Part shown: positions 1 through 60,667 of the stretch, piece by piece
Numbering within the stretch: the first letter of the stretch is position 1
How the letters are laid out: every line of letters starts with the position of its first letter
Virus record (IMG/VR): IMGVR_UViG_3300035698_022898
Coordinates: 1 to 64,000 of that record
Reading direction: 5' to 3' (one strand)
Length of the DNA: 64,000 bases
DNA from: a virus
The notes under the pieces: model-generated
Database searches by the model: none
Told to the model about the DNA's origin: nothing
Seen by the model: only the letters and a program-made list of their open reading frames with translations
Program-made: the position numbers and the translations under genes

Positions 1-221
1 CCTCTATCTCTACCAATAATTCTTTTACCTTTGCCTTGAGCGAGAATATGTCATCCCTGGCCCCAGCGCACCAGTTGTCAACCTGCCCAACAAGCCCATT
101 GAGATCATCCCACGGATGGCATTGTGGTGCCATAGACTTGAAGAGTTCCCGCAAGGAATAGACGGCCAAACTACTTTCTGCCTTCATCTCGGCCACGCTG
201 TTCCATGTATATCAATCACGA

Positions 222-356
222 TTACACCCCCCACAAATTAAAAAGTACAGCCCAAACAAGTACGAACAGGCCTAAAGTAAATCCTGTTGTGAAGGCTATG
301 ATTAATATTATTCCTATTTCAAAAATCACATAAGCAGTATCGTGGAATTTTTTCAT
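222..356 (-). CDS. small membrane protein (44 aa)
   Basis: Start re-set to MKKFHD just after the upstream ORF stop; long hydrophobic stretch. Confidence 0.5.
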   Translation of the reverse strand: MKKFHDTAYVIFEIGIILIIAFTTGFTLGLFVLVWAVLFNLWGV

Positions 357-357
357 G

Positions 358-528
358 TCAGTTCTTTTTTTCAAACAACGGGGCCAAGATGTCGTGAACG
401 TATTCAAGATCAATACATTCCATTTTGTCTGCCATTCGTTTTTCAACTGCAATCATAACTTCCCTGACAGCTTTTTGAGCAGCGCCATACGGAGCACGAA
501 ACTTTTTGTTTTTGAACGAGTGGGACAC
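358..528 (-). CDS. hypothetical protein (56 aa, not in ORF track)
   Basis: AGGAGG RBS, GTG start, open frame MSHSFKNKKFRAPYG...FEKKN* filling the gap between neighbours. Confidence 0.55.
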   Translation of the reverse strand: MSHSFKNKKFRAPYGAAQKAVREVMIAVEKRMADKMECIDLEYVHDILAPLFEKKN

Positions 529-49951: not shown

Positions 49952-50893
49952 TTATGCTTTGCAGCACATATAGATTTGGGCTGTGAGCCCCGGCATCCCC
50001 GAGTACATGACCGACTCCGAAAGTACAACCAACATCCTGGCTATCGAATCATCCCCGTTGGCTTTTCCTACCAACACTTTACTCAAGTATGTGAGTAAAG
50101 CATAACGGGATTTTTCTGCATCTTCTTCCAAAATCTTCAACACAGGAATTATGCGTGTCCACTTGCTGGCAAAGTCACCTTTGTCTGCAAGCACCCTGCA
50201 TACTTCGATAATAGATGCTTCATCGGGAGAAAAAGATTCAATGGCAGCCAGAGCCCCCGCGTCACTTGGAATATCTATTATTTGATCTAAAATCTTAATT
50301 CCTGCTCTCGGAGAACCTTCCGCTACTTTGACAATAGCTTGTATGATGTTATCCGGAAAATTTACTCCCTCTTCTTTACAAATGGAGTTCAAAAGCCTGG
50401 TCATTTGTGACCGTTGCAGACTGGACACTTTGAAAGTAGAACACCTGTTTCGGATTGTTCCCAGAAGTTTTTGAGGATCCGTAGTACAAAGAATGAAGTA
50501 TACATGATCAGGAGGATACTCCAATATACGAAGTAGAGCATTCTGAGCCTCGTTGGTCAGCTTATGACACTCGTCCAAGAGATATACTTTCGTAGGACCA
50601 GCCATGGGTCTGTATGACGCTTTGGCAGTCAAGTCCCTGATGGTGTCAATGCCCCTCAAATTGGAAGTATTCAAATACATGAAGTCCGTATCCGCACACT
50701 TGAGGTATTGTTGCAGGATGAATCCTAGGGTAGTCTTCCCACAACCTGATGGTCCGTGAAATAGAAACGCATGGGGAAGACCTGTTTCCCTTGCAACGAT
50801 AGTTCCTAAGCTTTCCAGGATGCTTTCATTCCCCATCATTTCAGCGAAGTTTCTGGGGCGATATTTTTCGGGGAGGTTCCTAGTTGCGTCCAT
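49952..50893 (-). CDS. dnaX: clamp loader, DNA polymerase III gamma/tau-like AAA+
   Basis: KYRP..F, HAFLFHGPSGCGKTT, KVYLLDECH.LT.EAQNALL, FILCTT.P.KL..TI.NRC, GSPR. Confidence 0.92.
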   Translation of the reverse strand: MDATRNLPEKYRPRNFAEMMGNESILESLGTIVARETGLPHAFLFHGPSGCGKTTLGFILQQYLKCADTDFMYLNTSNLRGIDTIRDLTAKASYRPMAGPTKVYLLDECHKLTNEAQNALLRILEYPPDHVYFILCTTDPQKLLGTIRNRCSTFKVSSLQRSQMTRLLNSICKEEGVNFPDNIIQAIVKVAEGSPRAGIKILDQIIDIPSDAGALAAIESFSPDEASIIEVCRVLADKGDFASKWTRIIPVLKILEEDAEKSRYALLTYLSKVLVGKANGDDSIARMLVVLSESVMYSGMPGLTAQIYMCCKA

Positions 50894-51056
50894 GTTTTTT
50901 AACTCCTTTCCACATTAAGAAATGCTTATTGAATTCCCTACCATCCCCGTGCCAGAAAAAGGAGAAGATTCTATTTCCCCCTACTCGGAGGATCATATCT
51001 TCTCTCATTATGCCCGTTTTTCCGTTACCGGAATTACCTGCTAGGTATAAATTCAC
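50880..51056 (-). CDS. DpdA N-terminal-like module D (58 aa, not in ORF track)
   Basis: GTG start; MNLYLAGNSGNGKTGIMREDMILRVGGNRIFSFFWHGDG...; overlaps both neighbours; paralog of three other small ORFs. Confidence 0.7.
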   Translation of the reverse strand: MNLYLAGNSGNGKTGIMREDMILRVGGNRIFSFFWHGDGREFNKHFLMWKGVKKHGRN

Positions 51057-51249
51057 GTTTTATACACTCTTCAGTGTTGATTTTAAGATCGTGGATCTTT
51101 TGTTCGAAGTCTCTAAACTTCCTATCCAATTCCATAAGATGCACATCCACATCTATTTCATGAATAGGGTTTTGAACTAGAGCAGCAAGGTCTGCCGCAT
51201 CCTCGGTCACACTTTCCGTCCACGCTAGGAATACTTCTTTCCGTGTCAT
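51034..51249 (-). CDS. hypothetical protein
   Basis: GGAG RBS directly after the polymerase. Confidence 0.6.
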   Translation of the reverse strand: MTRKEVFLAWTESVTEDAADLAALVQNPIHEIDVDVHLMELDRKFRDFEQKIHDLKINTEECIKREFIPSR

Positions 51250-51257
51250 AGGTTCTC

Positions 51258-53939
51258 CTAATGAACTAGGTTGTACTCAACACCCTTCTTGTCTTTCCAG
51301 GTGTTGTCAGTAAAGGTGACTTCCGTCTTGTCGAACCAACTCCCGTCAATGGGGGTGAACTCTGTTTCAATGTCAAGTGGAACGATAATCCAGGGGTGTT
51401 CCTCTCTGATGTATTCACAAGAGATAGTTCGTATGGTAGACACCACTTTGTTTTGTTCTTCGGGAACAGTATCCGTGAGCATACAGTCATGTATCTGCCC
51501 TATAAGGTCAGAATCCCACCCAGCAGCCTTAGCTTCCTCGTTAACCTCATTTGCTGACCAAAGCAGACAGTGAAAAGCAGTCCCCTGAATCTTTGTATTG
51601 ATAATCTCGTTTTTCGATAGGTATCCAGAGCGTCTATGTCCAAAGAACATTTCCACATACCCATCGCGAACAAAATCTTTGATGGATTTTTCTTGCCACT
51701 TCTTGGTAGCTGCAAGGCGTGTCCAGAAATCATCTTCAACATCTTTCATGTGTTTTTCAAAATCTTGGAATACATGAATGCCTATATCATGGAAGTGTTC
51801 TTGTATGGGTATACCGTCTTCGGTCTTCATATTGGTAACCCAACAGGCATCCCAAATAGTTCTGGCACATGCTTTATACCATGAACCGTAAACCATGGGA
51901 AAGACTTGTCCGTTTTTAGCATGGAAACGTAACATCTTAGCAACTTGATCTTGGCGCAACTGAAAAATCTTCATTGCTTGGTCCCTGTGCATATCTGTAG
52001 TTGGGTCTTGAATATAATTTACTAACACAGGGTCCTGAGTATAACATGCTAAAATACGAATTTCAATCGCGCCGTAATCGTTTTCAGCCAAACGTCTTCC
52101 GGGTGAAGCTTTTACACCGCTCCTACAAGCTCTACGTGCCGCTTCATCTCTTACAGGAACATTATGAAAATTAGGTTTACTACTAGAACTACGATATGTT
52201 CGAGCAGTATGTAGATCGAAGAAGGGGTGGATTTTTTCATCGTCGTCAATTTCCCTGAGGAATTGAGCCATATAAGTATCACATATCTTTTCTAACTTCC
52301 TCAAGCGCATGAGGCGTTTAATGAATGGATTATCCATCCCTACAAGCACTTCCTCATCTACGGAAGCAAGCCCGGACTCTGTTTTCTTTTCAGGAACCAT
52401 CCCCATGAGGTCAAACAATAAGTACCTAAGATCTTTATCCGATCCTATTTTAATGCGACGACCGGTATTCTTTATAAAAATCTCTGCTTCGAGAGAATCT
52501 TGTAGTCGGATAGTTATTCTATTTATCTGTTCTCGTAGGCGTTTTTCTTCCTCAAGATAGTATTGTCTATCCATGGGGATGCCTTTCCGTTGCATCTCAC
52601 CACATACAACTAATCCTTGTTGCCAGAAACGACGAGCCCGAAGCAACCCGTTCTTTCCCTTTAATTCTGCACGTTGTTCCAAGTACAGTCTCTTAGTGAG
52701 CAGAGAATCTATTCCGTTGTATTTTAAAACATGGGGGAGTGGCACTTCCTCCATACGATTAAAGAATTCTCCAGGAGCCGATTTTTTGTAAGGGTCTATG
52801 TCTTTATCATATTCTTCTACACCCCATCGAACATAAGCTTGAAATTTTAATCCCGATACTTTCTTTCTATCATCAAGTAGGTGAGCCGTGTTCATGGAAC
52901 ACCAACTTAAATTCTGAACCTCAACACCGTGTATTTCTCTATCCCACTCCCCCTCAAATTTAGAGTTATGAGCAATTTTTAGTATTTCTTTATGCTCTAA
53001 GATCCGTTTCCACATGTCCGTGATGCCCTTGAGTTGATTGGAGTCCCAATAAGACTTCCACATCATAGGCCAAGCATAAGCAAGATCATCGTATCCTAAA
53101 GAAGTGGTCAGTATTTTGCAACCGCGTCTGTACGGTTTCAAGGCGTTGGTTTCTATGTCATAAGAAATAGGAGGCTTTTGATCTAATACATTCTTAAACA
53201 TTCCGATAACATCTTCATACTTATATAAACAATGTACAGTGGTTTCTATGTCCACAGGAGCTGGCATTTTCCTTTTGAGGCATTGTACAGCAAACTCTAA
53301 ATCCTTACGAAAGACAGATAAGGTAACATCACTTCGGTCCTTTCTATCCCGATAAGCATAAGAAGGGTGAAATAAAGGTATAATGAGTGCGTTTAAGAAA
53401 TGATCTGGAATACAGAACTTGCGAAACCGAGAAGCTGTGATTTGAGAGAACCTACCCATAAACATCGACTCCATAGGTGCTTTACCCAGAAGCCATATAT
53501 GAGTAGGTTTAAGGTCTCTAATAGCCTTCATCACATAAGGCTTGCAACATTTTAATTCTGTTTTGTTCGGGGGTCTGTTGGCAGGGGGGCGACAATTTGC
53601 GGCATTGATTACATGTGCGTCTCTAAATACATTTATTCCAAAGGATTTAAGTTCATCTCGAAACCAGTTACCTATAGATCCTTGTAGCGGCATCCCGTTA
53701 TTATCTCCTACTTCATCCGGAGCCTCAAGAATAATCAACAGTCGTTTCTCCCCTTTGCCCATCCAAGGCATTCTAGGAGTCACACAACCTTTGTCTAGCC
53801 CGCAAGACTCACACATAGGTGGGCCGGGGTTCATATAAGTGTAAGGATTTGGAAGAGATGTTCCAAAAGGGGTAGCATTCTTGGATAAACTGACACAAGT
53901 ATTGCCGGGCATATCTTTAATAGAGAAAAATCCGTTCAT
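51258..53939 (-). CDS. family A DNA polymerase with N-terminal family-4 UDG-like domain and 3'-5' exonuclease
   Basis: CxxCx5C, EAP, N...CRPP.NRPP, HPS; YDIET, HN.KF, YN.ID; motif A DYGAIEIRILA, motif B R..AK...F...YG, motif C QIHD. Confidence 0.95.
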   Translation of the reverse strand: MNGFFSIKDMPGNTCVSLSKNATPFGTSLPNPYTYMNPGPPMCESCGLDKGCVTPRMPWMGKGEKRLLIILEAPDEVGDNNGMPLQGSIGNWFRDELKSFGINVFRDAHVINAANCRPPANRPPNKTELKCCKPYVMKAIRDLKPTHIWLLGKAPMESMFMGRFSQITASRFRKFCIPDHFLNALIIPLFHPSYAYRDRKDRSDVTLSVFRKDLEFAVQCLKRKMPAPVDIETTVHCLYKYEDVIGMFKNVLDQKPPISYDIETNALKPYRRGCKILTTSLGYDDLAYAWPMMWKSYWDSNQLKGITDMWKRILEHKEILKIAHNSKFEGEWDREIHGVEVQNLSWCSMNTAHLLDDRKKVSGLKFQAYVRWGVEEYDKDIDPYKKSAPGEFFNRMEEVPLPHVLKYNGIDSLLTKRLYLEQRAELKGKNGLLRARRFWQQGLVVCGEMQRKGIPMDRQYYLEEEKRLREQINRITIRLQDSLEAEIFIKNTGRRIKIGSDKDLRYLLFDLMGMVPEKKTESGLASVDEEVLVGMDNPFIKRLMRLRKLEKICDTYMAQFLREIDDDEKIHPFFDLHTARTYRSSSSKPNFHNVPVRDEAARRACRSGVKASPGRRLAENDYGAIEIRILACYTQDPVLVNYIQDPTTDMHRDQAMKIFQLRQDQVAKMLRFHAKNGQVFPMVYGSWYKACARTIWDACWVTNMKTEDGIPIQEHFHDIGIHVFQDFEKHMKDVEDDFWTRLAATKKWQEKSIKDFVRDGYVEMFFGHRRSGYLSKNEIINTKIQGTAFHCLLWSANEVNEEAKAAGWDSDLIGQIHDCMLTDTVPEEQNKVVSTIRTISCEYIREEHPWIIVPLDIETEFTPIDGSWFDKTEVTFTDNTWKDKKGVEYNLVH

Positions 53940-54130
53940 CGCACCCTCTCTGCAAAATCTTTAAATTGGGAACTATCTACATCCAAACCCTTGTAATATT
54001 GAAGGGTCACTACTGTCTTTTGAGTGTAGAAAAAGGTGACGAGTCGATTTGTCATATCCCCCCTTTCCAAGAGTTCTACTTCACGTTGTTTTTGAGCCCC
54101 GCCTGGAACACCTGCAAAATATATAATCAT
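53936..54130 (-). CDS. DpdA N-terminal-like module C (64 aa)
   Basis: MIIYFAG...NRLVTFFY; ATGA-coupled to the polymerase. Confidence 0.72.
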   Translation of the reverse strand: MIIYFAGVPGGAQKQREVELLERGDMTNRLVTFFYTQKTVVTLQYYKGLDVDSSQFKDFAERVR

Positions 54131-54138
54131 AATATCGG

Positions 54139-54330
54139 GTTGTTGCCCTTATTTTAAATTGGAATAGACCCTTGGCTACCCCCGGAGTCTAGGCCTCTCT
54201 GTGTGCGAATTTGCGGGTGAGAGCCTCTCAGAGCGTGCAGGGCAACAACACTGCAGTCCCTCTGAGCATGATTGTTGCCCGCTTCAACGATTGCGAATAT
54301 GACTGCGGGATGGCAAGATTATGACTTGCC
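54139..54330 (-). ncRNA. candidate structured cis-regulatory RNA
   Basis: GC-rich non-coding gap with consecutive hairpins and mutually exclusive 9-11 nt pairings. Confidence 0.4.
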
Positions 54331-55350
54331 GCTATTACTCACGGGCAGGGATATCAGGTGCTTGAAAGTACCTGAGGTAAACAACGCTGCCCCTTCCGCG
54401 ATTGTGAGTATGGTTGCTTTCTCCAGAATCTGAGAAAGAAAACTCGGGTTGATGACAAAGCGAACCGGATCTCTTTTGAACTCGAAGTCCAGTTGCTTTT
54501 CGATCCAGCCCACTTCCTTCTCTGCGCGACAGGAGATTACCTTTCCAGTCACGTTGACGTCCACTCTCTTATCGAGAGAAACTTCACCCTCTGTCATAAA
54601 AGAGATGGAGTCAATAAGGTCTTTGAGTTCCCCAGGAAGTTTGAGTTTCGTCCCCTCCACGTCCAAAAATTTGGAAAGATCGGGGAAGTCGCCGACCAGG
54701 ATGCGGGAACTGAAAACCACACCTTCTTCCGTTGTGAAGTGGATCCAGTTGTCGGTCATGGCATACTTGACGACGTTGAATTTGACAAGCTCAGCGACGG
54801 AACGTGCGGGGATAAGCACTTGCATACCCGTGTCGCTTTCCAGCTGGTAGATGCTGATTCTCGTTTCATCTGACGACATCAAACGAGGGCCGTCAACGTA
54901 AACGCAAGTCAAAACGCCTTGCGTCATGTCCGAAGCAGCGGCAAACATTGTGAGAAACATTCCCTGGATGAAATCGGGGGGAACAGGTTTCCACATTTCC
55001 GTAAGCCTGGGCAGATCGAGAACAGCAATCAGTTTTTCCGCTTCCTGTTCCACAGTAGTTGAAAGGCCGGCTTTGGTCTTTCCCGAGTTGACATTCAACT
55101 GACCGTCTTCAAAAGAAATGTCTATCTCTTCTTCCTGGATGCCGGCAAGCATCTTGTGAAGGTCATCGGCCTTAACCGAACAAGCGAAGTCTGTCTCAAA
55201 AGGGTGACAGATACAGAGTGTGTCGTTGTAGGTCACAACCTCACCACCTGTGAAGATGAAGTGAGTAAACTGTTCAACGATTGCTTTCTTCGCCAAACCA
55301 GGTTTGACTTTAGTAAGAACAGTGATTGCGGTGTTTCGATTAAGCTTCAC
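54319..55350 (-). CDS. dnaN: DNA polymerase III beta sliding clamp
   Basis: LTCVY...MSSDETRI, VLIPA.SV.EL, FSSRILVGDFPD, INPSFL; three-domain length; GGAGG RBS before GTG. Confidence 0.88.
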   Translation of the reverse strand: MKLNRNTAITVLTKVKPGLAKKAIVEQFTHFIFTGGEVVTYNDTLCICHPFETDFACSVKADDLHKMLAGIQEEEIDISFEDGQLNVNSGKTKAGLSTTVEQEAEKLIAVLDLPRLTEMWKPVPPDFIQGMFLTMFAAASDMTQGVLTCVYVDGPRLMSSDETRISIYQLESDTGMQVLIPARSVAELVKFNVVKYAMTDNWIHFTTEEGVVFSSRILVGDFPDLSKFLDVEGTKLKLPGELKDLIDSISFMTEGEVSLDKRVDVNVTGKVISCRAEKEVGWIEKQLDFEFKRDPVRFVINPSFLSQILEKATILTIAEGAALFTSGTFKHLISLPVSNSGKS

Positions 55351-55374
55351 GGAAACCTCCTGTAATTTCAATAA

Positions 55375-55403
55375 GAAATAGCACAATTAAAAATGGTATG
55401 CAA
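55375..55403 (-). promoter_or_regulatory. sigma70-type promoter for the clamp gene
   Basis: TTGCAT-N17-TATTTC with TGn extension. Confidence 0.5.
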
Positions 55404-55435
55404 GCATTACCACTACCCCAATTTAATTTTCTCCA

Positions 55436-55813
55436 TTAGTGTGTTATTTCAGAATAAATCCTTTCTTTTTTACCTTTTAAGTAAGCAACAAAACCAATGG
55501 CGTCCTCTACAGCATCGAACAAAGTGTTTTCTGAAAAAGATAAATTTCCTGTTTCTAATTTTTTCCAGTAATATTTTTTATCGCTTCCTTTAACAATGAT
55601 AAACCCTTTAGGTAAATCCTTTATAGTATACATTTGTTTTTGAGTATGAACTTTTTTAATCGACTTCTTTTTAACACTTTGAGTTTTGGATAAAACACCT
55701 TCATTGAAACTGTTGATAGCCAAAGAAAAATTTGGTTGTGAACCTATAAATCCTCCCAATGCAACCGAAAGAAGTATAATACCAAGTAAAGTAAACGCTT
55801 TCGGTGTGTCCAT
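55436..55813 (-). CDS. membrane-anchored hypothetical protein
   Basis: N-terminal hydrophobic segment; AT-rich. Confidence 0.6.
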   Translation of the reverse strand: MDTPKAFTLLGIILLSVALGGFIGSQPNFSLAINSFNEGVLSKTQSVKKKSIKKVHTQKQMYTIKDLPKGFIIVKGSDKKYYWKKLETGNLSFSENTLFDAVEDAIGFVAYLKGKKERIYSEITH

Positions 55814-55824
55814 AAGACCCCCTT

Positions 55825-56016
55825 TTATAGGTTATTCATATCCTCAGGTAGTACAGAGTTGGTTATATTTTGCCAACTACGCCTACGGAACTTAAATCCT
55901 GCTAGGAATAAATCATAAAAAGAAAATATAACCGTGGGTTTAACTCCAGCCTTTTCACAAGCACCCTCTACACAATCCCACAAATCGTCTCCTGCCCCTG
56001 CTAAATAGATATGCAT
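55825..56016 (-). CDS. DpdA N-terminal-like module B (63 aa)
   Basis: MHIYLAG...VIFSFYD; GGAG RBS. Confidence 0.72.
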   Translation of the reverse strand: MHIYLAGAGDDLWDCVEGACEKAGVKPTVIFSFYDLFLAGFKFRRRSWQNITNSVLPEDMNNL

Positions 56017-56024
56017 AATTCTCC

Positions 56025-56060
56025 AAATTAAAAGGGGAGGGGGTGTTGCCCGCCTCCCCT
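56025..56060 (-). terminator. rho-independent terminator
   Basis: AGGGGAGG/CCTCCCCT stem followed by TTTAATTT on the minus strand. Confidence 0.65.
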
Positions 56061-56082
56061 GTAGATAGGGTCAGAGCCCTCC

Positions 56083-56361
56083 TTACCCTACATGAAACAA
56101 GTGCCAAATATCGAAGTTTGCTCTGTTTTCCCAGGAGCCTAAGTAGACCCCCTTTTTGGGTAATTTATGTCCAGTTCCTACAGCTTCAAACGTGTGTGTG
56201 ATTTTGACGGCATCCGTATCCACCTCTATCCACATGCAGGCTTGATCGTCTTGTGTATCTACTCGTATAATTCTTTCCCAAATGCATTTGCCACTTGCGG
56301 GCGGTATTTCTAAGGCAAATTTACCACTACTCGGGATTAGGTACTTCCAAATCGTTTTCAT
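56083..56361 (-). CDS. conserved phage hypothetical protein (DUF7352-like)
   Basis: MKTIWKY...W..VD...F...GTGH......YLG......WHLF. Confidence 0.65.
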   Translation of the reverse strand: MKTIWKYLIPSSGKFALEIPPASGKCIWERIIRVDTQDDQACMWIEVDTDAVKITHTFEAVGTGHKLPKKGVYLGSWENRANFDIWHLFHVG

Positions 56362-56524
56362 CTTCCACTCCCAGAGCCCGGAACACCGTTTCGCAATCCC
56401 CTTTATAGTAGAATGCCAACAGTCTGGCATAATGAGGACTCCGTTGAAGAACTAGATCACGCATACCTCGTTCCAAATCCGGGCTCTTCATTTGGGGAAA
56501 GTTCCCTGCGTGAAATATGATCAT
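56327..56524 (-). CDS. DpdA N-terminal-like module A (65 aa)
   Basis: MIIFHAG...RLLAFYY. Confidence 0.7.
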   Translation of the reverse strand: MIIFHAGNFPQMKSPDLERGMRDLVLQRSPHYARLLAFYYKGDCETVFRALGVEDENDLEVPNPE

Positions 56525-56530
56525 GTACTC

Positions 56531-56908
56531 TTACCCTTTGTTAGCAGGGTTGAGGTGTTTGGGGATAATGAGTCCTGTGGGAGGAGCAGCTACTTTGGAG
56601 GGGCCTTGAATATGGGCCTCCTTAGCCCTGGCTACGGACTCTTCCCACTCAATCATTTTCCGAACAAGGATGGAATTGGCCTTGTAAGTGATTACAATTT
56701 TGTCCTTGGAAACAGCTTTGCAGCTTTTGAAATCCGAGAATATCAACCAGTCTTCAATTTGAAGACCTTTCATCATAGGTTGTTCGGGGTTGGTGTGGAC
56801 AATTATACTCCTGGGATTATGCCACAAATCATCACCAGGGACTTTGTAATAGGCTATAAGTTGCCCGGAGACGAGTTCTGCCACATGTAATTCTTTTTCC
56901 TTAACCAT
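56531..56908 (-). CDS. hypothetical protein (Sm-like pattern)
   Basis: LVSGQLIA...NPR.I...W..F.......V.KDKIV; GGAGG RBS. Confidence 0.55.
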   Translation of the reverse strand: MVKEKELHVAELVSGQLIAYYKVPGDDLWHNPRSIIVHTNPEQPMMKGLQIEDWLIFSDFKSCKAVSKDKIVITYKANSILVRKMIEWEESVARAKEAHIQGPSKVAAPPTGLIIPKHLNPANKG

Positions 56909-58010
56909 TGTTTCCTCCCTGTAAGTCCTTCAAACAGAAGAGCTTGGGTTGTGATTGTTGTTTTACCTTATGTTGAAACACCCAGGGCCATTCTGGAATA
57001 CTTTTTTCCAGATCTAAATAATAAAGGATGTTTAGTTCATCCCTTTTCCGATAATCGTTAGACAAGCCTCGAATAAGAATTTTCTCGACACTACGTTGAC
57101 CGTCAACGGCTTTTCCGTCCCAACGCTCGTCTTCTTCGAGTTTGTAGTCTGACGGTTCCATGCGAAACTCGGATTCTCCGAGAACGAACCCTTTTTCTTC
57201 AAAGTAGCGAGTAATGAATTTTCGCTCAGCATCGGTAAAGTTTTTCAAATGCTTTCCTTCAATCTTAATAGAAGGTGAGCGGGTAGAGACGACAACGGAC
57301 CACGCAGGCTCGTCATAAATGTATTCTCCTGACCTCCATCTAGGTACACACACAATGCCATATTTTCCGAACTTGACCCAACTGGTACTGTCACAACTAT
57401 ACCAGGGGTAACGATTGACAAGCTTTGCAGATGTGACCGCGAACCCATGTACTTTGACAAGGGGCATTCCTTTGTCGTCGGTTAACATGGTAGACCAAAT
57501 TCTGTCAAGGTTGGGGATAAGCACTTTGGGAGGGTTAGGAATCATACCGCCCATAGCAATGTAAGTATATCCCAATTCCAAGTACATTTCCAACCACTTT
57601 TCATCACACCCGAAATGAAATACTGGAATAGGTGTCAACCCGAAAGACTCTAGGTACTTCTGATTATCCCATGTCGCTTCTGGGTTGTTAATCACATCCA
57701 AATTTGCGTAAACCTCCAGATGGTCTTTGTACTTTAGAATAAATTGTACATAACCGTCTCTGTACTCTAAATATATTTTCCTACTACTGCATATTTCAGA
57801 AAGAGGACAAGATAAACAGGGCTCCGCATTTTCCCAAGTACCGTAGTCCCTACTATTGGGACATTGGTGAACATCTAAAAAAGGGTAAACGTCAAATTTC
57901 CTATCCTCAAGATAGGAGCCCATATAGGTAGCCTTTTTGTCTTTACGCACCAGAGTGTTGTAAAGACTAGGGGCACCAGAGTCAAGAAATATTCTTACAT
58001 TCTCGGTCAC
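56901..58010 (-). CDS. dpdA: DpdA-like 7-deazaguanine DNA transglycosylase (TGT fold), N-terminally truncated
   Basis: IFLDSGA, YANLDVI, PIPVFH, IAMGG, KVHGFAVT, YPWYSCDSTSW; clustered with folE/queD/queE. Confidence 0.82.
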   Translation of the reverse strand: MTENVRIFLDSGAPSLYNTLVRKDKKATYMGSYLEDRKFDVYPFLDVHQCPNSRDYGTWENAEPCLSCPLSEICSSRKIYLEYRDGYVQFILKYKDHLEVYANLDVINNPEATWDNQKYLESFGLTPIPVFHFGCDEKWLEMYLELGYTYIAMGGMIPNPPKVLIPNLDRIWSTMLTDDKGMPLVKVHGFAVTSAKLVNRYPWYSCDSTSWVKFGKYGIVCVPRWRSGEYIYDEPAWSVVVSTRSPSIKIEGKHLKNFTDAERKFITRYFEEKGFVLGESEFRMEPSDYKLEEDERWDGKAVDGQRSVEKILIRGLSNDYRKRDELNILYYLDLEKSIPEWPWVFQHKVKQQSQPKLFCLKDLQGGNNG

Positions 58011-59005
58011 AGAAGCCTCATCTCGTTGATCATTTTGGGGATGGCTTTTTCACCCATTCTCCGAAGAACTTTTTGAGTAACTTTAATTTGAGTATCAAAT
58101 AATTGGTTATTTACGGGGTTCTGAATCATATGGATTTTGTCAACTAAATCATTCCAGCTTGTATAAATGAATCTTTTGGGGTATAATTCAGGATAACTGA
58201 GGTCATTGGGCACCAAGGGGATACACCCACAGAAAAGAGCTTCCTGCATGGCAATTCCCCACGTTTCTTGTAAAGCAAAGGAAACGGCTATTTTTCCAGT
58301 GCCCAACAATTCATAGTACGACCGTTTATCCATGCAAGCATTTTTGGTTCTGAGGAATCTTGTTTCTGGTAATTGAAATTCCAAGTTATCGAAAAGATCC
58401 GGTCGTTTTTCAGGATCCAAACGGTGAGGAAACAGGATGCACTCCCTTTCGGCGTCGGGTTCTGTTTCTGGAATAAATTCGTCGGGGTACATGGGGAATC
58501 TTGTTACTTTCACCTTTTTCGCGGATCTGGTCTTTAACAAAAGATTCCTGTGATAATCTGTGGCTACAAAGATGCAGTCTATGAAGTTGAACCAGGCATT
58601 CTCTTGAAAAGAAGCCCAATATCGCATTCCTTTACGAGTAAGGAAATCCTGGGAATCGTAAGTCCCTGCGTGAAGGCACCCAGCGATTTTGAAATTTATG
58701 TCATTTCCTTGACGGATGTATTGCAAAGCTTCCAGCCCAGGAAACCACAAATCATGGAAAAACAGTATGTCTCCGTCCTTCAACAAATGTAGATTTTTTA
58801 TGAACCATTGAAGTTGGGAAAGCTTGTAATGGTTGGTAGAAACCACATCCAAGAAAGCACCTGTGATGATGGAATCTGTCAGAGCTATTCCGGGAACGTC
58901 AATCACAGGAATGTCATGATTGGCAAACTCCCGCAGAAACCACTTTGCCCATTGGCCTGAGTATCTTTCTTCCAGAGGCTCTATGGAGAAGTTCCAAATT
59001 CTCAT
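58007..59005 (-). CDS. GT-B glycosyltransferase (candidate DNA base glycosyltransferase)
   Basis: EPLEERY, HAGTYD, FPHRLDPEKRP, ALQETWGIAMQEA...GCIP.VP..LSYPE; overlaps dpdA (GTGA) and radical SAM (ATGA). Confidence 0.85.
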   Translation of the reverse strand: MRIWNFSIEPLEERYSGQWAKWFLREFANHDIPVIDVPGIALTDSIITGAFLDVVSTNHYKLSQLQWFIKNLHLLKDGDILFFHDLWFPGLEALQYIRQGNDINFKIAGCLHAGTYDSQDFLTRKGMRYWASFQENAWFNFIDCIFVATDYHRNLLLKTRSAKKVKVTRFPMYPDEFIPETEPDAERECILFPHRLDPEKRPDLFDNLEFQLPETRFLRTKNACMDKRSYYELLGTGKIAVSFALQETWGIAMQEALFCGCIPLVPNDLSYPELYPKRFIYTSWNDLVDKIHMIQNPVNNQLFDTQIKVTQKVLRRMGEKAIPKMINEMRLL

Positions 59006-60324
59006 AAAATTCCCAACCTTCCACAAATTGCGTAATATGTGGAAATATCTTCGAGACTAATCTCGAGTACTTTGGATTGTTTCAAATGATCTTTTACAGT
59101 CTTTCCCGAAAAGTCGGACATGTTGTAAGGGTCGATTTTATACATTCTAAACCAAACAAGATCTGAATCTTGAATATCCCTTTTGTACACGATTTCCTCA
59201 TTCAAAAAGGAATTGGGGATAAAACTCGGAAGCAGTCTCATTGGACGTTCTGTGAGAATAAACCCGTCTTCCCAAGTAACTTCGGCCGCCGTTCCGTGAT
59301 AAGGTTGAAAGAACTGACCCAACCCTGCTTCGGTCCCGTTAGTTTGCACCCTGCTGTACAGTTCTTCGGGCTTAAACCCGTATTTTCGCAGGAAGTCTCC
59401 CGTCATATTGAGAGTCTTGAAAGTTTCTCCAGGGAAGAAAGTCATCGTAAGCCAGAAAATATTTGTGGGTTGGTTTTCCGCAAGTTCCATACAGGAACGA
59501 ATTACACCGCTTTTTTTCATTTCCGAAGCCACTTCGGGGGAAGCAGTTTCCAAACCGACTTCAAGAAGGCGTACACCCTGTTCACGGAAAGTTTCGTGTC
59601 CGTATTTTTGGGTGTACTTGAGAACGCTTATGGGTTCTGCCAAGGCGATGAAGTTAAAGCCCCCCAATTTGCGGGCATATTCCAAAATGTGGTAAGCACG
59701 ATCAGTATCGAAAAGGAAGTTTTCATCAGTGAAATGCAGATTTCTTATTCCACGATCGTGCATTTCATGAAGAATATTACAAACTACACTCTCAGGCAAC
59801 GCTAATCGTTTTCGTTCACAATTCCTTGTGGCGGGGCAAAAAGTGCAACCCTTGGGGCATCCGTATGAAGTAAAAAACGGATAAACCTGACCTTCGTATT
59901 CTCGTAAGTGCATATCACAATCACTCAGGAGAATTGTTTGAAAATCCTCATAATATCTATGATACTTGGAAATCCCTTCAAGTATGCGATGATTGGGGAT
60001 TACTTCCGAGGGCAAACAGTATCTGTCGATCAGCGGGTAATAGCCGAAGAAGACTTTGTAGCCCTCAAGGAAACGATTTATTACTTGACAAGCCTCAATC
60101 TGCGGGTATGACCACAAAGCAACCATGTACTTCTTTGCTTTGGGAAGATTGTCCAAATTGGCAACAGTGAAATCCTCAATCAGGAGGGTATCCAAACCAT
60201 CTGCCTTACATGAAGCATAGAGAATGTAAGGTAGGTAGCAGAAGCTTCCCCTGTTAAACTCGGTAGATGCAGGGTCTATGATAACTACATCGTAGACCTT
60301 ATCCTTCGACAGATTTACAGTCAT
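59002..60324 (-). CDS. radical SAM enzyme with N-terminal cobalamin-binding-like domain
   Basis: TSYGCPKGCTFC, HFTDENF, VGLET, FFPGET, PYHGT; ~150-aa N-terminal alpha/beta domain; GGAGG RBS. Confidence 0.85.
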   Translation of the reverse strand: MTVNLSKDKVYDVVIIDPASTEFNRGSFCYLPYILYASCKADGLDTLLIEDFTVANLDNLPKAKKYMVALWSYPQIEACQVINRFLEGYKVFFGYYPLIDRYCLPSEVIPNHRILEGISKYHRYYEDFQTILLSDCDMHLREYEGQVYPFFTSYGCPKGCTFCPATRNCERKRLALPESVVCNILHEMHDRGIRNLHFTDENFLFDTDRAYHILEYARKLGGFNFIALAEPISVLKYTQKYGHETFREQGVRLLEVGLETASPEVASEMKKSGVIRSCMELAENQPTNIFWLTMTFFPGETFKTLNMTGDFLRKYGFKPEELYSRVQTNGTEAGLGQFFQPYHGTAAEVTWEDGFILTERPMRLLPSFIPNSFLNEEIVYKRDIQDSDLVWFRMYKIDPYNMSDFSGKTVKDHLKQSKVLEISLEDISTYYAICGRLGIL

Positions 60325-60667
60325 AATAAGCCTCCGCTCCATTTTCGTTATCCTCAAATACCGAGGTGTAAGCAGCACCGAATCTGTCTATCAGTTCGGC
60401 ACACATCATTTCGCATGACATTTTACCTAAGTCTTGGTCCCACCAGTTATCTTTAAGGAACTTTTCGACGAGCATTTTTTTGCTGATAAATTCAATATCT
60501 CTATCATCATGAAATACCGGCCATTTCATAGTAATGTGGAATACATGACGATGGGGAGTCTTTAGGAAGGATACAGCTTCAATGGGACATTCGGGCCAAC
60601 AATGGATAGCGGGGAAACTTGTCTTTATGATAACCGAGGATATTTTCCTAACGCTCATAATTGTCAT
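60299..60667 (-). CDS. QueD paralog, DpdL-like T-fold protein (putative CDG decarboxylase)
   Basis: HCWP, LKTPHRHVFH (LxxxHRHxF instead of CxxxHGH), HDDRDIEF, SCE, VFEDNENG. Confidence 0.7.
   Translation of the reverse strand: MTIMSVRKISSVIIKTSFPAIHCWPECPIEAVSFLKTPHRHVFHITMKWPVFHDDRDIEFISKKMLVEKFLKDNWWDQDLGKMSCEMMCAELIDRFGAAYTSVFEDNENGAEAYYDCKSVEG

What the first reader, a model, noticed from the sequence alone, without database searches (positions are those of the whole stretch)
50880..58010. Split DpdA: truncated transglycosylase plus four dispersed, possibly interchangeable N-terminal modules
Seen: the DpdA-like ORF (56901..58010) starts only 6 residues before IFLDSGA. Four 58-65 aa ORFs share one two-motif pattern: MIIFHAG..RLLAFYY (56327..56524), MHIYLAG..VIFSFYD (55825..56016), MIIYFAG..RLVTFFY (53936..54130) and MNLYLAG..RIFSFFW (50880..51056, below the ORF-track cut-off). 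The segments between and after the motifs are divergent. One module is ATGA-coupled to the DNA polymerase and another overlaps the clamp-loader start. Knowledge (recalled, not searched): full-length phage DpdA/TGT-fold proteins usually carry an hhYhAG strand and an RLh[ST] strand before hhhDSGA, i.e. the first strands of the TIM barrel. Inference: the barrel is completed in trans by one of four alternative small subunits. That could give several sequence or base specificities, or stage-specific activation or inhibition of DNA modification. I know of no described system like this.
Basis: partly seen in the sequence, partly recalled or inferred. Interest (0 to 1): 0.92.

Follow-up and report, generated by a model that had tools for sequence, protein, structure and literature searches.

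The report
Split DpdA with four barrel-quarter genes
This uncultured phage encodes its DNA-modifying enzyme DpdA without the first quarter of its barrel fold, and four small conserved genes among the replication genes each encode a different version of that quarter; a structure model docks the one tested into the gap, and I found no paper describing this layout.

Summary
The DpdA-like ORF (56901-58010, minus strand) starts 6 residues before IFLDSGA. In the 86-kb virus genome exactly four small ORFs (A-D) match the N-terminal piece that other family members carry fused.

- **Homology:** profile-profile alignments place all four on residues 1-40/43 of full-length fused relatives (probability 83-97%).
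- **Docking:** a complex model puts module A between the core's last and first barrel strands (score 0.86, best control 0.01).
- **Fusions elsewhere:** the same module types occur free, N-terminally fused, C-terminally fused or in tandem arrays of 2-4.
- **Linkage:** free modules lie beside DpdA in 72 of 81 sources. A module-first search found a DpdA core in 52 of 52 loci.
- **Conservation:** the order DpdA-A-B-clamp-C-polymerase-D-clamp loader is kept in diverged relatives, and each type has its own conserved loops.

Two things remain open. Docking of B, C and D was not modelled, and the purpose of several modules is untested. AlphaFold2 models of two fused relatives left the N-terminal piece at low confidence.

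My searches found no paper on this layout. This scan had already noted the same layout on other DNA (at least six genomes).

Verdict: real, a new variant of a known enzyme kind, high interest.

The parts
56901..58010 (-). DpdA-like DNA-guanine transglycosylase core. It is a three-quarter barrel (strands 3-8 plus the C-terminal part) and lacks the N-terminal strand1-helix-strand2-helix unit.
   Evidence: phrog_887 at 3e-36. There are 1049 homologues. D10, D105 and D207 are invariant in an 82-row alignment. Models of 40-50% identical relatives match bacterial DpdA 7ui4 at Z 13.4, rmsd 3.9 A, 235 residues aligned, and also TGT and ArcTGT. Only 13 codons are open upstream of the start.
56327..56524 (-). 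Module A: quarter-barrel protein, 65 aa, with the type-A loop motif AGNFPxM.
   Evidence: 49% identity to residues 1-47 of fused homologue P0045, E 4e-12. hhalign to fused DpdA gives 94.3%, E 9.5e-8. The complex model with the core scores 0.86 against 0.01 for the best control. Orthologues sit at the same position in L001, L002, L004, L005 and L006.
55825..56016 (-). Module B: quarter-barrel protein, 63 aa, type B, with an extra conserved F-x-F-R-x-x-x-W stretch after strand 2.
   Evidence: E 4.2e-5 against the HMM built without window sequences. hhalign gives 83.0%, E 9.1e-6. Orthologues in L001, L002, L004, L005 and L006 are 33-52% identical. This is the weakest of the four: it was not significant against the fused-extension-only HMM.
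53936..54130 (-). Module C: quarter-barrel protein, 64 aa, with the type-C loop AGVPxGxQxxRE. Its stop overlaps the DNA polymerase start (ATGA).
   Evidence: E 1.3e-9. hhalign gives 96.7%, E 3.7e-10. Orthologues lie directly before polA in L001, L002, L004 and L006. The junction was read.
50880..51056 (-). Module D: quarter-barrel protein, 58 aa, GTG start, with the type-D loop AGNxGxGxxG and S-[FY]-F-W. It overlaps the clamp-loader start by 14 nt.
   Evidence: E 1.1e-5. hhalign gives 97.1%, E 5.6e-11. Orthologues lie between polA and the clamp loader in L001, L002, L004 and L006. The junction was read.

Best explanation
The DpdA gene encodes only strands 3-8 of a TGT-type (beta/alpha)8 barrel. 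Each of the four ~60-aa proteins is a free strand1-helix1-strand2-helix2 unit, a quarter barrel. It docks non-covalently between the core's last strand (the SCDS strand with the nucleophile Asp) and its first strand (IFLDSG with the general acid/base Asp). This closes the barrel and makes the active DNA-guanine / 7-deazaguanine exchange enzyme.

All four share the two strand motifs that contact the core, but each carries its own conserved strand1/helix1 and strand2/helix2 loops. They therefore probably compete for the one site and give up to four holoenzyme variants. In bacterial DpdA those two loops lie on the DNA-binding, active-site face of the barrel. The most likely difference between variants is therefore DNA contact or sequence context, or a partner protein. 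A difference in which base is inserted is less likely.

Shown here: homology, linkage, conservation, and natural fusions in several arrangements. Modelled with controls: docking of A. Inferred: docking of B, C and D, competition for the site, and any difference in specificity.
For: 1. Homology to the N-terminus of full-length enzymes.
- Module A is 49% identical to residues 1-47 of P0045, E 4e-12.
- Types A, B, C and D align to positions 1-40/43 of a 44-row fused-DpdA alignment at 94.3, 83.0, 96.7 and 97.1% probability.

2. Complex model of the window DpdA with module A.
- Scores were 0.87, 0.84 and 0.86; the three controls scored 0.00, 0.00 and 0.01.
- That mark was reached by 58 of 80 solved complexes and 2 of 110 mismatched pairs. 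These counts hold only roughly, because my own alignments were used.
- The runs agree in at least 81% of contacts, and the partner's pLDDT is at least 78.
- The lowest-error contacts are core 5-10 with module 32-38 (strand 2 beside strand 3) and core 205-206 with module 2-4 (strand 1 beside strand 8).
- Core 321-341 (terminal helix) and core 86-97 also touch the module, as expected for the helices that flank the gap in a closed barrel. Which module helix each touches was not listed.

3. Natural fusions ('Rosetta stones').
- The same module types are free in some contigs and N-terminally fused in others.
- L008 and L009 carry the module in frame at the C-terminus of the core, with no start codon, which amounts to a circular permutation.
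- Some proteins carry 2, 3 or 4 tandem modules before a core: P0129, P0202, P0126, P0143 and P0124.

4. Linkage.
- 72 of 81 sources have free modules.
- 44 of the 50 sources without an N-terminally fused module have them.
- All 197 free-module ORFs are on the DpdA strand and none on the other strand, which holds 18,359 of the 30,165 candidate ORFs. The median distance to the core is 149 nt.
- A scan for the W-type module pattern alone found 52 loci, 31 of them on contigs not seen before. All 52 hold a DpdA core.

5. Selection.
- The order rSAM-GT-DpdA-A-B-clamp-C-polA-D-clamp loader is kept in L001, L002, L004 and L006, and in part in L005.
- Module identities of 33-54% are similar to those of the flanking genes, 41-54%.
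- Each type has its own conserved loop motifs.

6. Solved bacterial DpdA (passages of PMC10164549).
- Two strands precede the strand that carries Asp95.
- The strand1/helix1 insertion helps form the DNA-binding surface.
- The strand2/helix2 insertion flanks the active site.
Against: - AlphaFold2 models of two naturally fused relatives did not place the N-terminal piece with confidence. In P0045, residues 1-50 had pLDDT 42-61 and only residues 2-5 formed a strand. In P0071, residues 1-50 had pLDDT 46-68 and no strand was assigned. The cores were above 89.
- The complex pass could reflect the predictor's memory of single-chain TGT barrels. It shows likeness, not binding.
- Only A was modelled.
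- B is the weakest member by sequence.
- Free modules also accompany cores that already have a fused module (28 of 31), and up to four tandem modules precede one core. Simple one-to-one completion therefore cannot be the whole story.
- 2 of the 50 sources without an N-terminal fusion showed no module at all (L025 and L080). Two more had only weak hits (L015 and L073, E 0.002-0.006).
- No expression or activity data exist.
Confidence: 0.62

Rival explanations
1. Only one module, most likely A, is the structural partner that completes the barrel. The other three keep the docking strands but act as regulators, for example caps that hold the core inactive or time its activity. Alternatively they act as adaptors that tether the core to replisome proteins.
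For: - C and D are translationally coupled to the polymerase and the clamp loader, and these positions are conserved in relatives.
- In L067 a B-type module runs in frame into the polymerase ORF.
- In L004 a C-type module carries an extra ~75-aa tail.
- P0270 joins a W-type module to an unrelated 300-aa part.
- Free modules coexist with cores that already have a fused module in 28 of 31 sources.
Against: - All four window modules keep both strand motifs in register with fused enzymes.
- Every module type examined is found fused to a core somewhere.
- Fusions to non-DpdA proteins are few: three cases were noticed among more than 200 modules.
- Nothing here distinguishes an activating docking from an inhibitory one.
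Confidence: 0.22
2. The core works on its own as an open or self-closed barrel. The small proteins are an independent family of small phage proteins that merely shares ancestry with the DpdA N-terminus and has another target.
For: - The cores are modelled at high confidence without a well-placed N-terminal piece.
- The Atlas's own model of module C alone is poor, with pTM 0.22.
- Most of the 120 best homologues (88) lack an N-terminal extension.
Against: - Co-occurrence with a core is strict, 52 of 52 in the module-first scan.
- Modules are on the same strand in all 197 cases, at a median distance of 149 nt.
- N-terminal, C-terminal and tandem fusions to the core occur.
- The complex model with controls supports docking.
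- The core has six parallel strands by DSSP in both models, and the solved relatives are eight-stranded.
Confidence: 0.1
3. The small ORFs are decaying fragments left by duplications of the 5' end of dpdA and have no function.
For: - They are short and have no Pfam, NCBIfam or PHROG family.
- Some related contigs carry frameshifted copies.
Against: - The order and the type-specific motifs are conserved at 33-54% identity, on a par with the polymerase and the clamp.
- 203 hits begin at a start codon, 181 of them ATG.
- 991 clusters of such proteins reach E <= 0.001 among 1.84 billion representatives. Of the best 150, 143 are at most 120 aa.
Confidence: 0.03

Closest known systems
Single-chain phage DpdA of cultured phages (records annotated DpdA or queuine tRNA-ribosyltransferase, e.g. 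Pseudomonas phage Iggy, PaMx25, Rhizobium phage RHEph04, 9g-like coliphages; phrog_887)
   Same: They belong to the same protein family: tblastn gives 37-41% identity over the core and phrog_887 matches at 3e-36. The gene neighbourhood is also the same, with 7-deazaguanine precursor genes, the sliding clamp and the polymerase. Their N-termini carry the same two strand motifs before the hFLDSGA strand.
   Different: In those phages the first quarter is part of the same polypeptide. No free module was detected in the five regions scanned, nor by tblastn of two modules against 50,697 phage records. Here the quarter is missing from DpdA and is encoded four times separately.
Bacterial DpdA of the Dpd system (Salmonella Montevideo, PDB 7ui4; PMC10164549, passages read)
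   Same: The TGT-like (beta/alpha)8 fold is shared: the model of relative P0071 matches at Z 13.4, rmsd 3.9 A, 235 residues aligned. Three invariant Asp occur in the same order. It is a DNA substrate enzyme that exchanges guanine for a 7-deazaguanine.
   Different: The bacterial enzyme is a single chain of 413 residues and has a CXCX2CX22H zinc site, which is not conserved here (no invariant Cys). It needs the DpdB ATPase. The NCBIfam DpdA model scores only 14.7 bits against a cut-off of 200.
Split-type archaeosine tRNA-guanine transglycosylases (Haloferax volcanii, Methanosarcina; passage of PMC4770233)
   Same: They are TGT-superfamily enzymes encoded in two genes and are still active.
   Different: There the break lies between the accessory C1 and C2 domains, outside the barrel, and there is a single partner. 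Here the break is inside the catalytic barrel and there are four alternative partners.
Engineered split or half TIM barrels such as HisF halves and fragment-complemented TIM or PRAI (recalled, not searched beyond)
   Same: A (beta/alpha)8 barrel is reassembled from separate fragments.
   Different: Those are laboratory constructs with a single complementary fragment. This is a natural 2+6 split with paralogous quarter-barrels under selection.
Type I restriction-modification enzymes with exchangeable HsdS specificity subunits (analogy only, recalled)
   Same: One catalytic unit is combined with alternative small subunits. In some related contigs a repeat tract could switch a module on or off.
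   Different: The folds are unrelated. In HsdS the subunit is a separate DNA-reading protein, not a piece of the catalytic fold. A role in specificity is untested here.

Membership tests
TGT/DpdA superfamily (guanine transglycosylases) | TGT-type (beta/alpha)8 barrel fold | tested here: met
   Models of relatives P0045 (47% identical) and P0071 hit ArcTGT 1j2b, bacterial and human TGT, and DpdA 7ui4. Foldseek gives E 1.2e-4 and probability 1.00. VIA-align 2 gives Z 13.4, rmsd 3.9 A, 235 aligned. The window protein was folded only inside the complex, where its pLDDT was 82-83.
TGT/DpdA superfamily (guanine transglycosylases) | Three invariant active-site Asp (bacterial DpdA Asp95, Asp130, Asp256) | tested here: met
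   D10, D105 and D207 are invariant in 82 sequences and lie in the same order on the first, second and last parallel strands. Their residue-by-residue equivalence to 7ui4 is inferred from motif and order, not read from a superposition.
TGT/DpdA superfamily (guanine transglycosylases) | Structural zinc site CXCX2C...H that pins the large insertion to the barrel | tested here: not met
   The 82-row alignment has no invariant or nearly invariant Cys. The window protein has four Cys of its own in an insertion at about residues 50-74, which relatives lack.
TGT/DpdA superfamily (guanine transglycosylases) | Passes the curated family models (Pfam TGT, NCBIfam DpdA NF041059) | tested here: not met
   Pfam gives no family at E <= 1. 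NF041059 gives 14.7 bits against a cut-off of 200. PHROG 887 does match at 3e-36.
Single-chain phage DpdA (phrog_887 type) | Strands 1 and 2 of the barrel in the same polypeptide as the catalytic strands | tested here: not met
   The ORF starts 6 residues before the strand with D10, and only 13 codons are open upstream. This is the point of difference.
Single-chain phage DpdA (phrog_887 type) | Exchanges guanine in DNA for a 7-deazaguanine base | not testable with these tools
   Only context is available. Radical-SAM and glycosyltransferase-like genes lie directly upstream. Precursor genes in the window were noted by other first readers and I did not check them.
DpdA-associated quarter-barrel modules (unnamed family defined here) | About 45-100 aa, with an N-terminal M-x-h-[YFW]-h-A-[GAST] strand and an R-L-h-[ST]-[FY] strand about 25-35 residues later | tested here: met
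   All four window ORFs meet this. The median length of free modules is 60 aa.
DpdA-associated quarter-barrel modules (unnamed family defined here) | Encoded on the same strand as a DpdA core and close to it | tested here: met
   A lies 377 nt, B 885 nt, C 2.8 kb and D 5.8 kb downstream of dpdA on the same strand. In the family, 197 of 197 are on the same strand and 182 of 197 lie within 2 kb.
Split-type ArcTGT | Break between the accessory domains C1 and C2, with the catalytic barrel intact | tested here: not met
   The break here lies before barrel strand 3. The ArcTGT feature comes from a passage of PMC4770233.

The most novel reading that the evidence does not exclude
This is a combinatorial DNA-modifying enzyme. 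One catalytic three-quarter barrel is completed by interchangeable quarter-barrel subunits. Their type-specific loops on the DNA-binding face set different sequence contexts, or dock the enzyme to different replisome partners. A single phage could then modify guanines in several contexts from one catalytic gene. In relatives, (GA)n tracts inside a fused module could switch between cis and trans completion. If so, it would also be a natural, selected example of TIM-barrel assembly from a (beta/alpha)2 unit plus a (beta/alpha)6 unit.
Probability: 0.3. Interest if true: 0.92.

Novelty: new variant of a known kind. Interest (0 to 1): 0.82.

Why it matters
Phage DpdA enzymes put 7-deazaguanines into DNA and so defeat restriction and CRISPR. 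What sets their target motifs and modification levels is an open question.

A catalytic barrel that takes its first quarter from one of several small proteins would be a new way to diversify a DNA-modifying enzyme. It might also help explain why some phage DpdA genes fail when expressed alone; I did not test this. The authors of PMC10516641 report that their attempts to test DpdA3 and DpdA4 members in E. coli were unsuccessful. I did not establish whether those subfamilies are split.

For protein evolution, it offers a widespread natural 2+6 split of a TIM barrel. There are 991 sequence clusters of modules, and free, N-fused, C-fused (permuted) and tandem forms all occur. This makes ideas about barrel assembly from quarter units directly testable.

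For annotation, several hundred clusters of ~60-aa 'hypothetical' phage ORFs gain a proposed role, and 'truncated' dpdA genes need not be pseudogenes.

Tried and rejected
**Searches that gave nothing**
- Sequence search of PDB with the DpdA ORF found nothing relevant (best E 1.5, a histone).
- Pfam, NCBIfam and PHROGs on the four small ORFs found no family. The one exception was a chance-level TatA hit at E 0.18.
- ESM Atlas on module C gave only unnamed clusters and a DUF4367 label on 11% of members. Its structure rows were unrelated, and the Atlas's own model was poor. It was not informative.
- The look-up of sequencing runs listed no RNA holder. Only small shares were held, by runs labelled salt-lake metagenome, and I did not lay them.
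- tblastn of a W-type module and of module C against 50,697 phage records found no match at E <= 1. The module HMM over five regions of cultured phages (Nadezda, vB_Kpn2-P2, Iggy, RHEph04, Sulfitobacter M39; 1290 ORFs) found no hit at E <= 0.1. That HMM also failed to score the fused N-termini of Iggy and RHEph04, so it is blind to that more distant variant.

**AlphaFold2 of fused relatives**
- The two models were meant to show the module inside the barrel. The N-terminal 50 residues came out at low confidence, so they neither show nor exclude it.
- The VIA ranges (model 5..326 against 7ui4 11..409) give only the first and last aligned residues.

**Readings considered and rejected**
- Self-completion of the barrel by the core's C-terminal part. 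The C-terminal elements are modelled as antiparallel sheets plus one long helix, and the complex puts the module next to strands 8 and 3. I had no coordinates to inspect.
- An upstream exon or frameshift supplying the N-terminus. Only 13 codons are open upstream, and the upstream gene is a glycosyltransferase-like ORF.
- Pseudogene fragments (see the rival explanations).

**Literature**
- Five full-text searches listed no paper on a DpdA split within the barrel or on DpdA small subunits. Term look-ups were made in three papers: PMC10516641, PMC6884629 (zero occurrences of N-terminal, truncated, split, shorter, small protein or subunit) and PMC10164549. These showed no mention of a DpdA split within the barrel or of small DpdA subunits.
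- Only listings, abstracts and matched passages were seen, not whole texts. The DpdA lists in the supplements of PMC10516641 and PMC6884629 could contain short-form genes that I could not see.

Full report
**What is there**

The window is part of an 86,234-base virus record that CheckV rates 98% complete. On the minus strand lies a run of genes: radical-SAM (59002-60378), glycosyltransferase-like (58007-59026), a DpdA-like gene (56901-58010), sliding clamp, family-A polymerase and clamp loader.

The DpdA-like ORF has 369 aa and begins MTENVR followed by IFLDSGA. Only 13 codons are open upstream, and the upstream gene overlaps it by 4 nt.

The ORF matches phrog_887 'queuine tRNA-ribosyltransferase' at 3e-36. 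It passes neither Pfam nor the NCBIfam DpdA model (14.7 bits against a cut-off of 200).

The stop of C overlaps the polymerase ATG, and D overlaps the clamp-loader start by 14 nt. The 3' end of A overlaps by about 35 nt the likely start (Met24) of a DUF7352 gene.

**Are the small ORFs more than chance?**

Among the 120 best of 1049 homologues of the DpdA ORF, 32 carry an N-terminal extension of 38 residues or more before the hhhD[SC]G strand. The other 88 start a few residues before that strand, are cut, or lack the searched motif.

An HMM of those 32 extensions alone ranks C, D and A first to third among the window's 1403 stop-to-stop ORFs (2.4e-7, 9.8e-5, 0.014). B was not significant with it (rank 8, E 2.5).

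An HMM of 186 modules from other contigs, with no window sequence, ranks all four on top (1.3e-9, 1.1e-5, 4.2e-5, 1.4e-4; the next ORF 0.036).

Module A is 49% identical to residues 1-47 of the 384-aa homologue P0045, E 4e-12.

Profile-profile alignment of each type (window copy plus orthologues) against 44 naturally fused enzymes places all four on template positions 1-40/43, starting residue 1 on residue 1. Probabilities are 94.3, 83.0, 96.7 and 97.1%.

The whole virus genome has these four matches, no more, and one core.

**The family around it**

A scan of viral contigs with the DpdA alignment returned 80 loci. With an iterated module HMM, 72 of the 81 sources (the loci plus the window) hold free modules, and 31 hold a module fused to the N-terminus of the core.

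Of the 50 sources without an N-terminal fusion, 44 have free modules. Of the 31 with a fusion, 28 have free modules as well.

Of the six sources without a detected module:
- L008 and L009 carry the module in frame at the C-terminus of the core, with Trp in place of the start Met.
- L015 and L073 have weak hits just after the core (E 0.002-0.006).
- L025 and L080 have none. L080 is a 5-kb contig that starts at the core.

All 197 free-module ORFs lie on the DpdA strand and none on the other strand, which holds 18,359 of the 30,165 candidate ORFs. The median distance to the core is 149 nt, and 182 lie within 2 kb.

203 hits begin at a start codon (181 ATG). The median free length is 60 aa.

The reverse test searched viral contigs for the W-type module pattern alone. 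It gave 52 loci, 31 of them on contigs not seen before, and all 52 have a DpdA core upstream on the same strand.

Against 1.84 billion representative proteins, the module profile finds 991 clusters at E <= 0.001 and 44 at E <= 1e-10. Of the best 150, 143 are at most 120 aa and 6 are over 250 aa. Five of those six are cores preceded by two (P0129, P0202), three (P0126, P0143) or four (P0124) tandem modules.

**Types and conservation**

The modules fall into recognisable types. The window's four types recur at the same positions in diverged relatives. The order rSAM-GT-DpdA-A-B-clamp-C-polA-D-clamp loader holds in L001, L002, L004 and L006, and in L005 as far as that contig reaches. Module identities to the window are 33-54%, against 41-54% for DpdA, clamp, polymerase and clamp loader.

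Within each type the conserved positions are the two strands shared by all types, plus type-specific residues right after strand 1 and after strand 2:
- A: AGNFPxM
- B: AAVGxD, and F-x-F-R-x-x-x-W
- C: AGVPxGxQxxRE, and T-L-x-x-Y-K
- D: AGNxGxGxxG, and S-[FY]-F-W

This pattern is what purifying selection on four different functions would leave.

The same types are free in some contigs and fused in others. Type A is fused in P0045 and L028. The M, T, V and W types are each found both ways.

**Does a module fit the barrel?**

In solved bacterial DpdA the barrel has insertions in the strand1/helix1 loop (residues 16-36), the strand2/helix2 loop (54-68), the strand3/helix3 loop (97-109) and the strand8/helix8 loop. 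Asp95 is the general acid/base, Asp130 binds the base and Asp256 is the nucleophile (passages of PMC10164549). Two strands therefore precede the Asp95 strand.

In the window's family D10, D105 and D207 are invariant. The models of relatives show six parallel strands from the D10 strand to the D207 strand, followed by a large insertion and a terminal helix. The core thus corresponds to strands 3-8. This equivalence is inferred from motif and order.

Scores were 0.87, 0.84 and 0.86, against 0.00, 0.00 and 0.01 for the three controls. That mark was reached by 58 of 80 solved complexes and 2 of 110 mismatched pairs; these counts hold only roughly, since my own alignments were used. The runs agree in at least 81% of contacts, and the partner's pLDDT is at least 78.

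The lowest-error contacts are:
- core 5-10 with module 32-38, that is RLLAFYY beside IFLDSG;
- core 205-206 with module 2-4, that is strand 1 beside the SCDS strand.

Core 321-341 (terminal helix) and core 86-97 also touch the module. This is the neighbour pattern of a closed (beta/alpha)8 barrel. The tool's caveat applies: a pass may reflect likeness to solved single-chain TGT barrels, and it is no measurement of binding.

**Results against**

AlphaFold2 on two naturally fused relatives modelled the cores well. It left the first 50 residues at pLDDT 42-68, with one short strand in P0045 and none in P0071.

Modules beside already complete enzymes (28 of 31) and tandem arrays of up to four modules cannot be explained by a simple missing-piece story. 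Either modules exchange at the site, or the extra ones do something else.

B, C and D were not modelled. No RNA data were found. No cultured phage with this layout was found.

**Most likely mechanism**

The small proteins are trans-acting quarter barrels that close the DpdA core, and several paralogues compete for the one site.

[quoted passage not shown] The base-binding residues lie on later strands. The type-specific loops of the modules therefore more plausibly tune DNA contact, sequence context or a partner than the identity of the inserted base. This last step is inference.

The conserved coupling of C and D to the polymerase and the clamp loader, and one in-frame module-polymerase ORF (L067), keep an adaptor role open.

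**Comparison and novelty**

- The closest known enzymes are the single-chain phage DpdAs (Iggy, PaMx25, RHEph04, 9g-like), which carry the quarter fused.
- Bacterial DpdA 7ui4 shares the fold and the three Asp, but not the zinc site.
- Split-type ArcTGTs are broken between accessory domains, not inside the barrel.

My five literature searches and three term look-ups found no description of a barrel-internal split or of DpdA small subunits. Supplements could not be read.

Earlier notes of this scan describe the same layout on at least six other genomes, one of them checked later. I reached the same reading from my own calls before seeing them.

I rate it a new variant of a known kind: a real, widespread feature with an untested function.

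Noticed in passing
L023:9919-10020, L058:9946-10050, L029:9860-9960, L065:6520-6600, L027:9827-9930: In five related contigs a module ORF changes frame exactly at a (GA)n/(AG)n tract of about 5-8 units, which encodes the conserved R-E-R-E helix. Gain or loss of one GA unit would restore the frame. This could be repeat-mediated on/off switching of a cis module, a fixed frameshift or an assembly error. The window's own modules have no such tract.
   Followed up: partly
L008:8637-9890 and L009:9075-10379: The DpdA core has a module fused in frame at its C-terminus, with Trp where free modules have the start Met. This is a natural circular permutation of the barrel order. P0068 (411 aa) and P0076 (406 aa) look like the same form.
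   Followed up: partly
P0124, P0126, P0143, P0129, P0202: These single polypeptides carry four, three, three, two and two tandem modules in front of one DpdA core. P0121, P0122, P0123, P0139 and P0140 are two-module proteins without a core.
   Followed up: no
L067:10450-13206; L004:14379-14816; P0270: A B-type module runs in frame, with no stop, into the DNA polymerase ORF. A C-type module carries an extra ~75-aa tail. A W-type module is joined to an unrelated ~300-aa part. These hint that modules can serve as docking tags on other proteins.
   Followed up: no
window 57790-57870 (DpdA residues ~48-75): The window's DpdA has an insertion with four Cys (C50, C65, C68, C74) that the closest homologues lack at this place. 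Another first-reader note calls it a Cys4 micro-domain that the SSB also carries. I did not test this.
   Followed up: no
L001:9908-11164, L006/L007:9758-10978 (also P0009, P0016, P0019, P0021, P0022, P0024): Close relatives of the window's DpdA have a 50-90-aa N-terminal extension that starts M-K-h-Y but lacks the A-G and R-L-h-S-Y motifs. It does not hit the module HMM. It may be a decayed cis module in genomes that also keep all four free modules.
   Followed up: no
window 56531-56908 (-), 55436-55813 (-), 51034-51249 (-): Three ORFs without a family (125, 125 and 71 aa) are interleaved with the modules. The first overlaps the DpdA stop by 8 nt and ends 7 nt before module A's ATG. tblastn at E 1e-3 found no counterpart of them in the nine related loci searched.
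   Followed up: partly
L081:1052-2050 (Mycobacterium phage Nadezda): The annotated DpdA starts directly with a strand-2-like motif, with no strand 1 upstream. The 45-aa ORF before it looks membrane-like. This may be a mis-called start or another N-terminal variant in a cultured phage.
   Followed up: no
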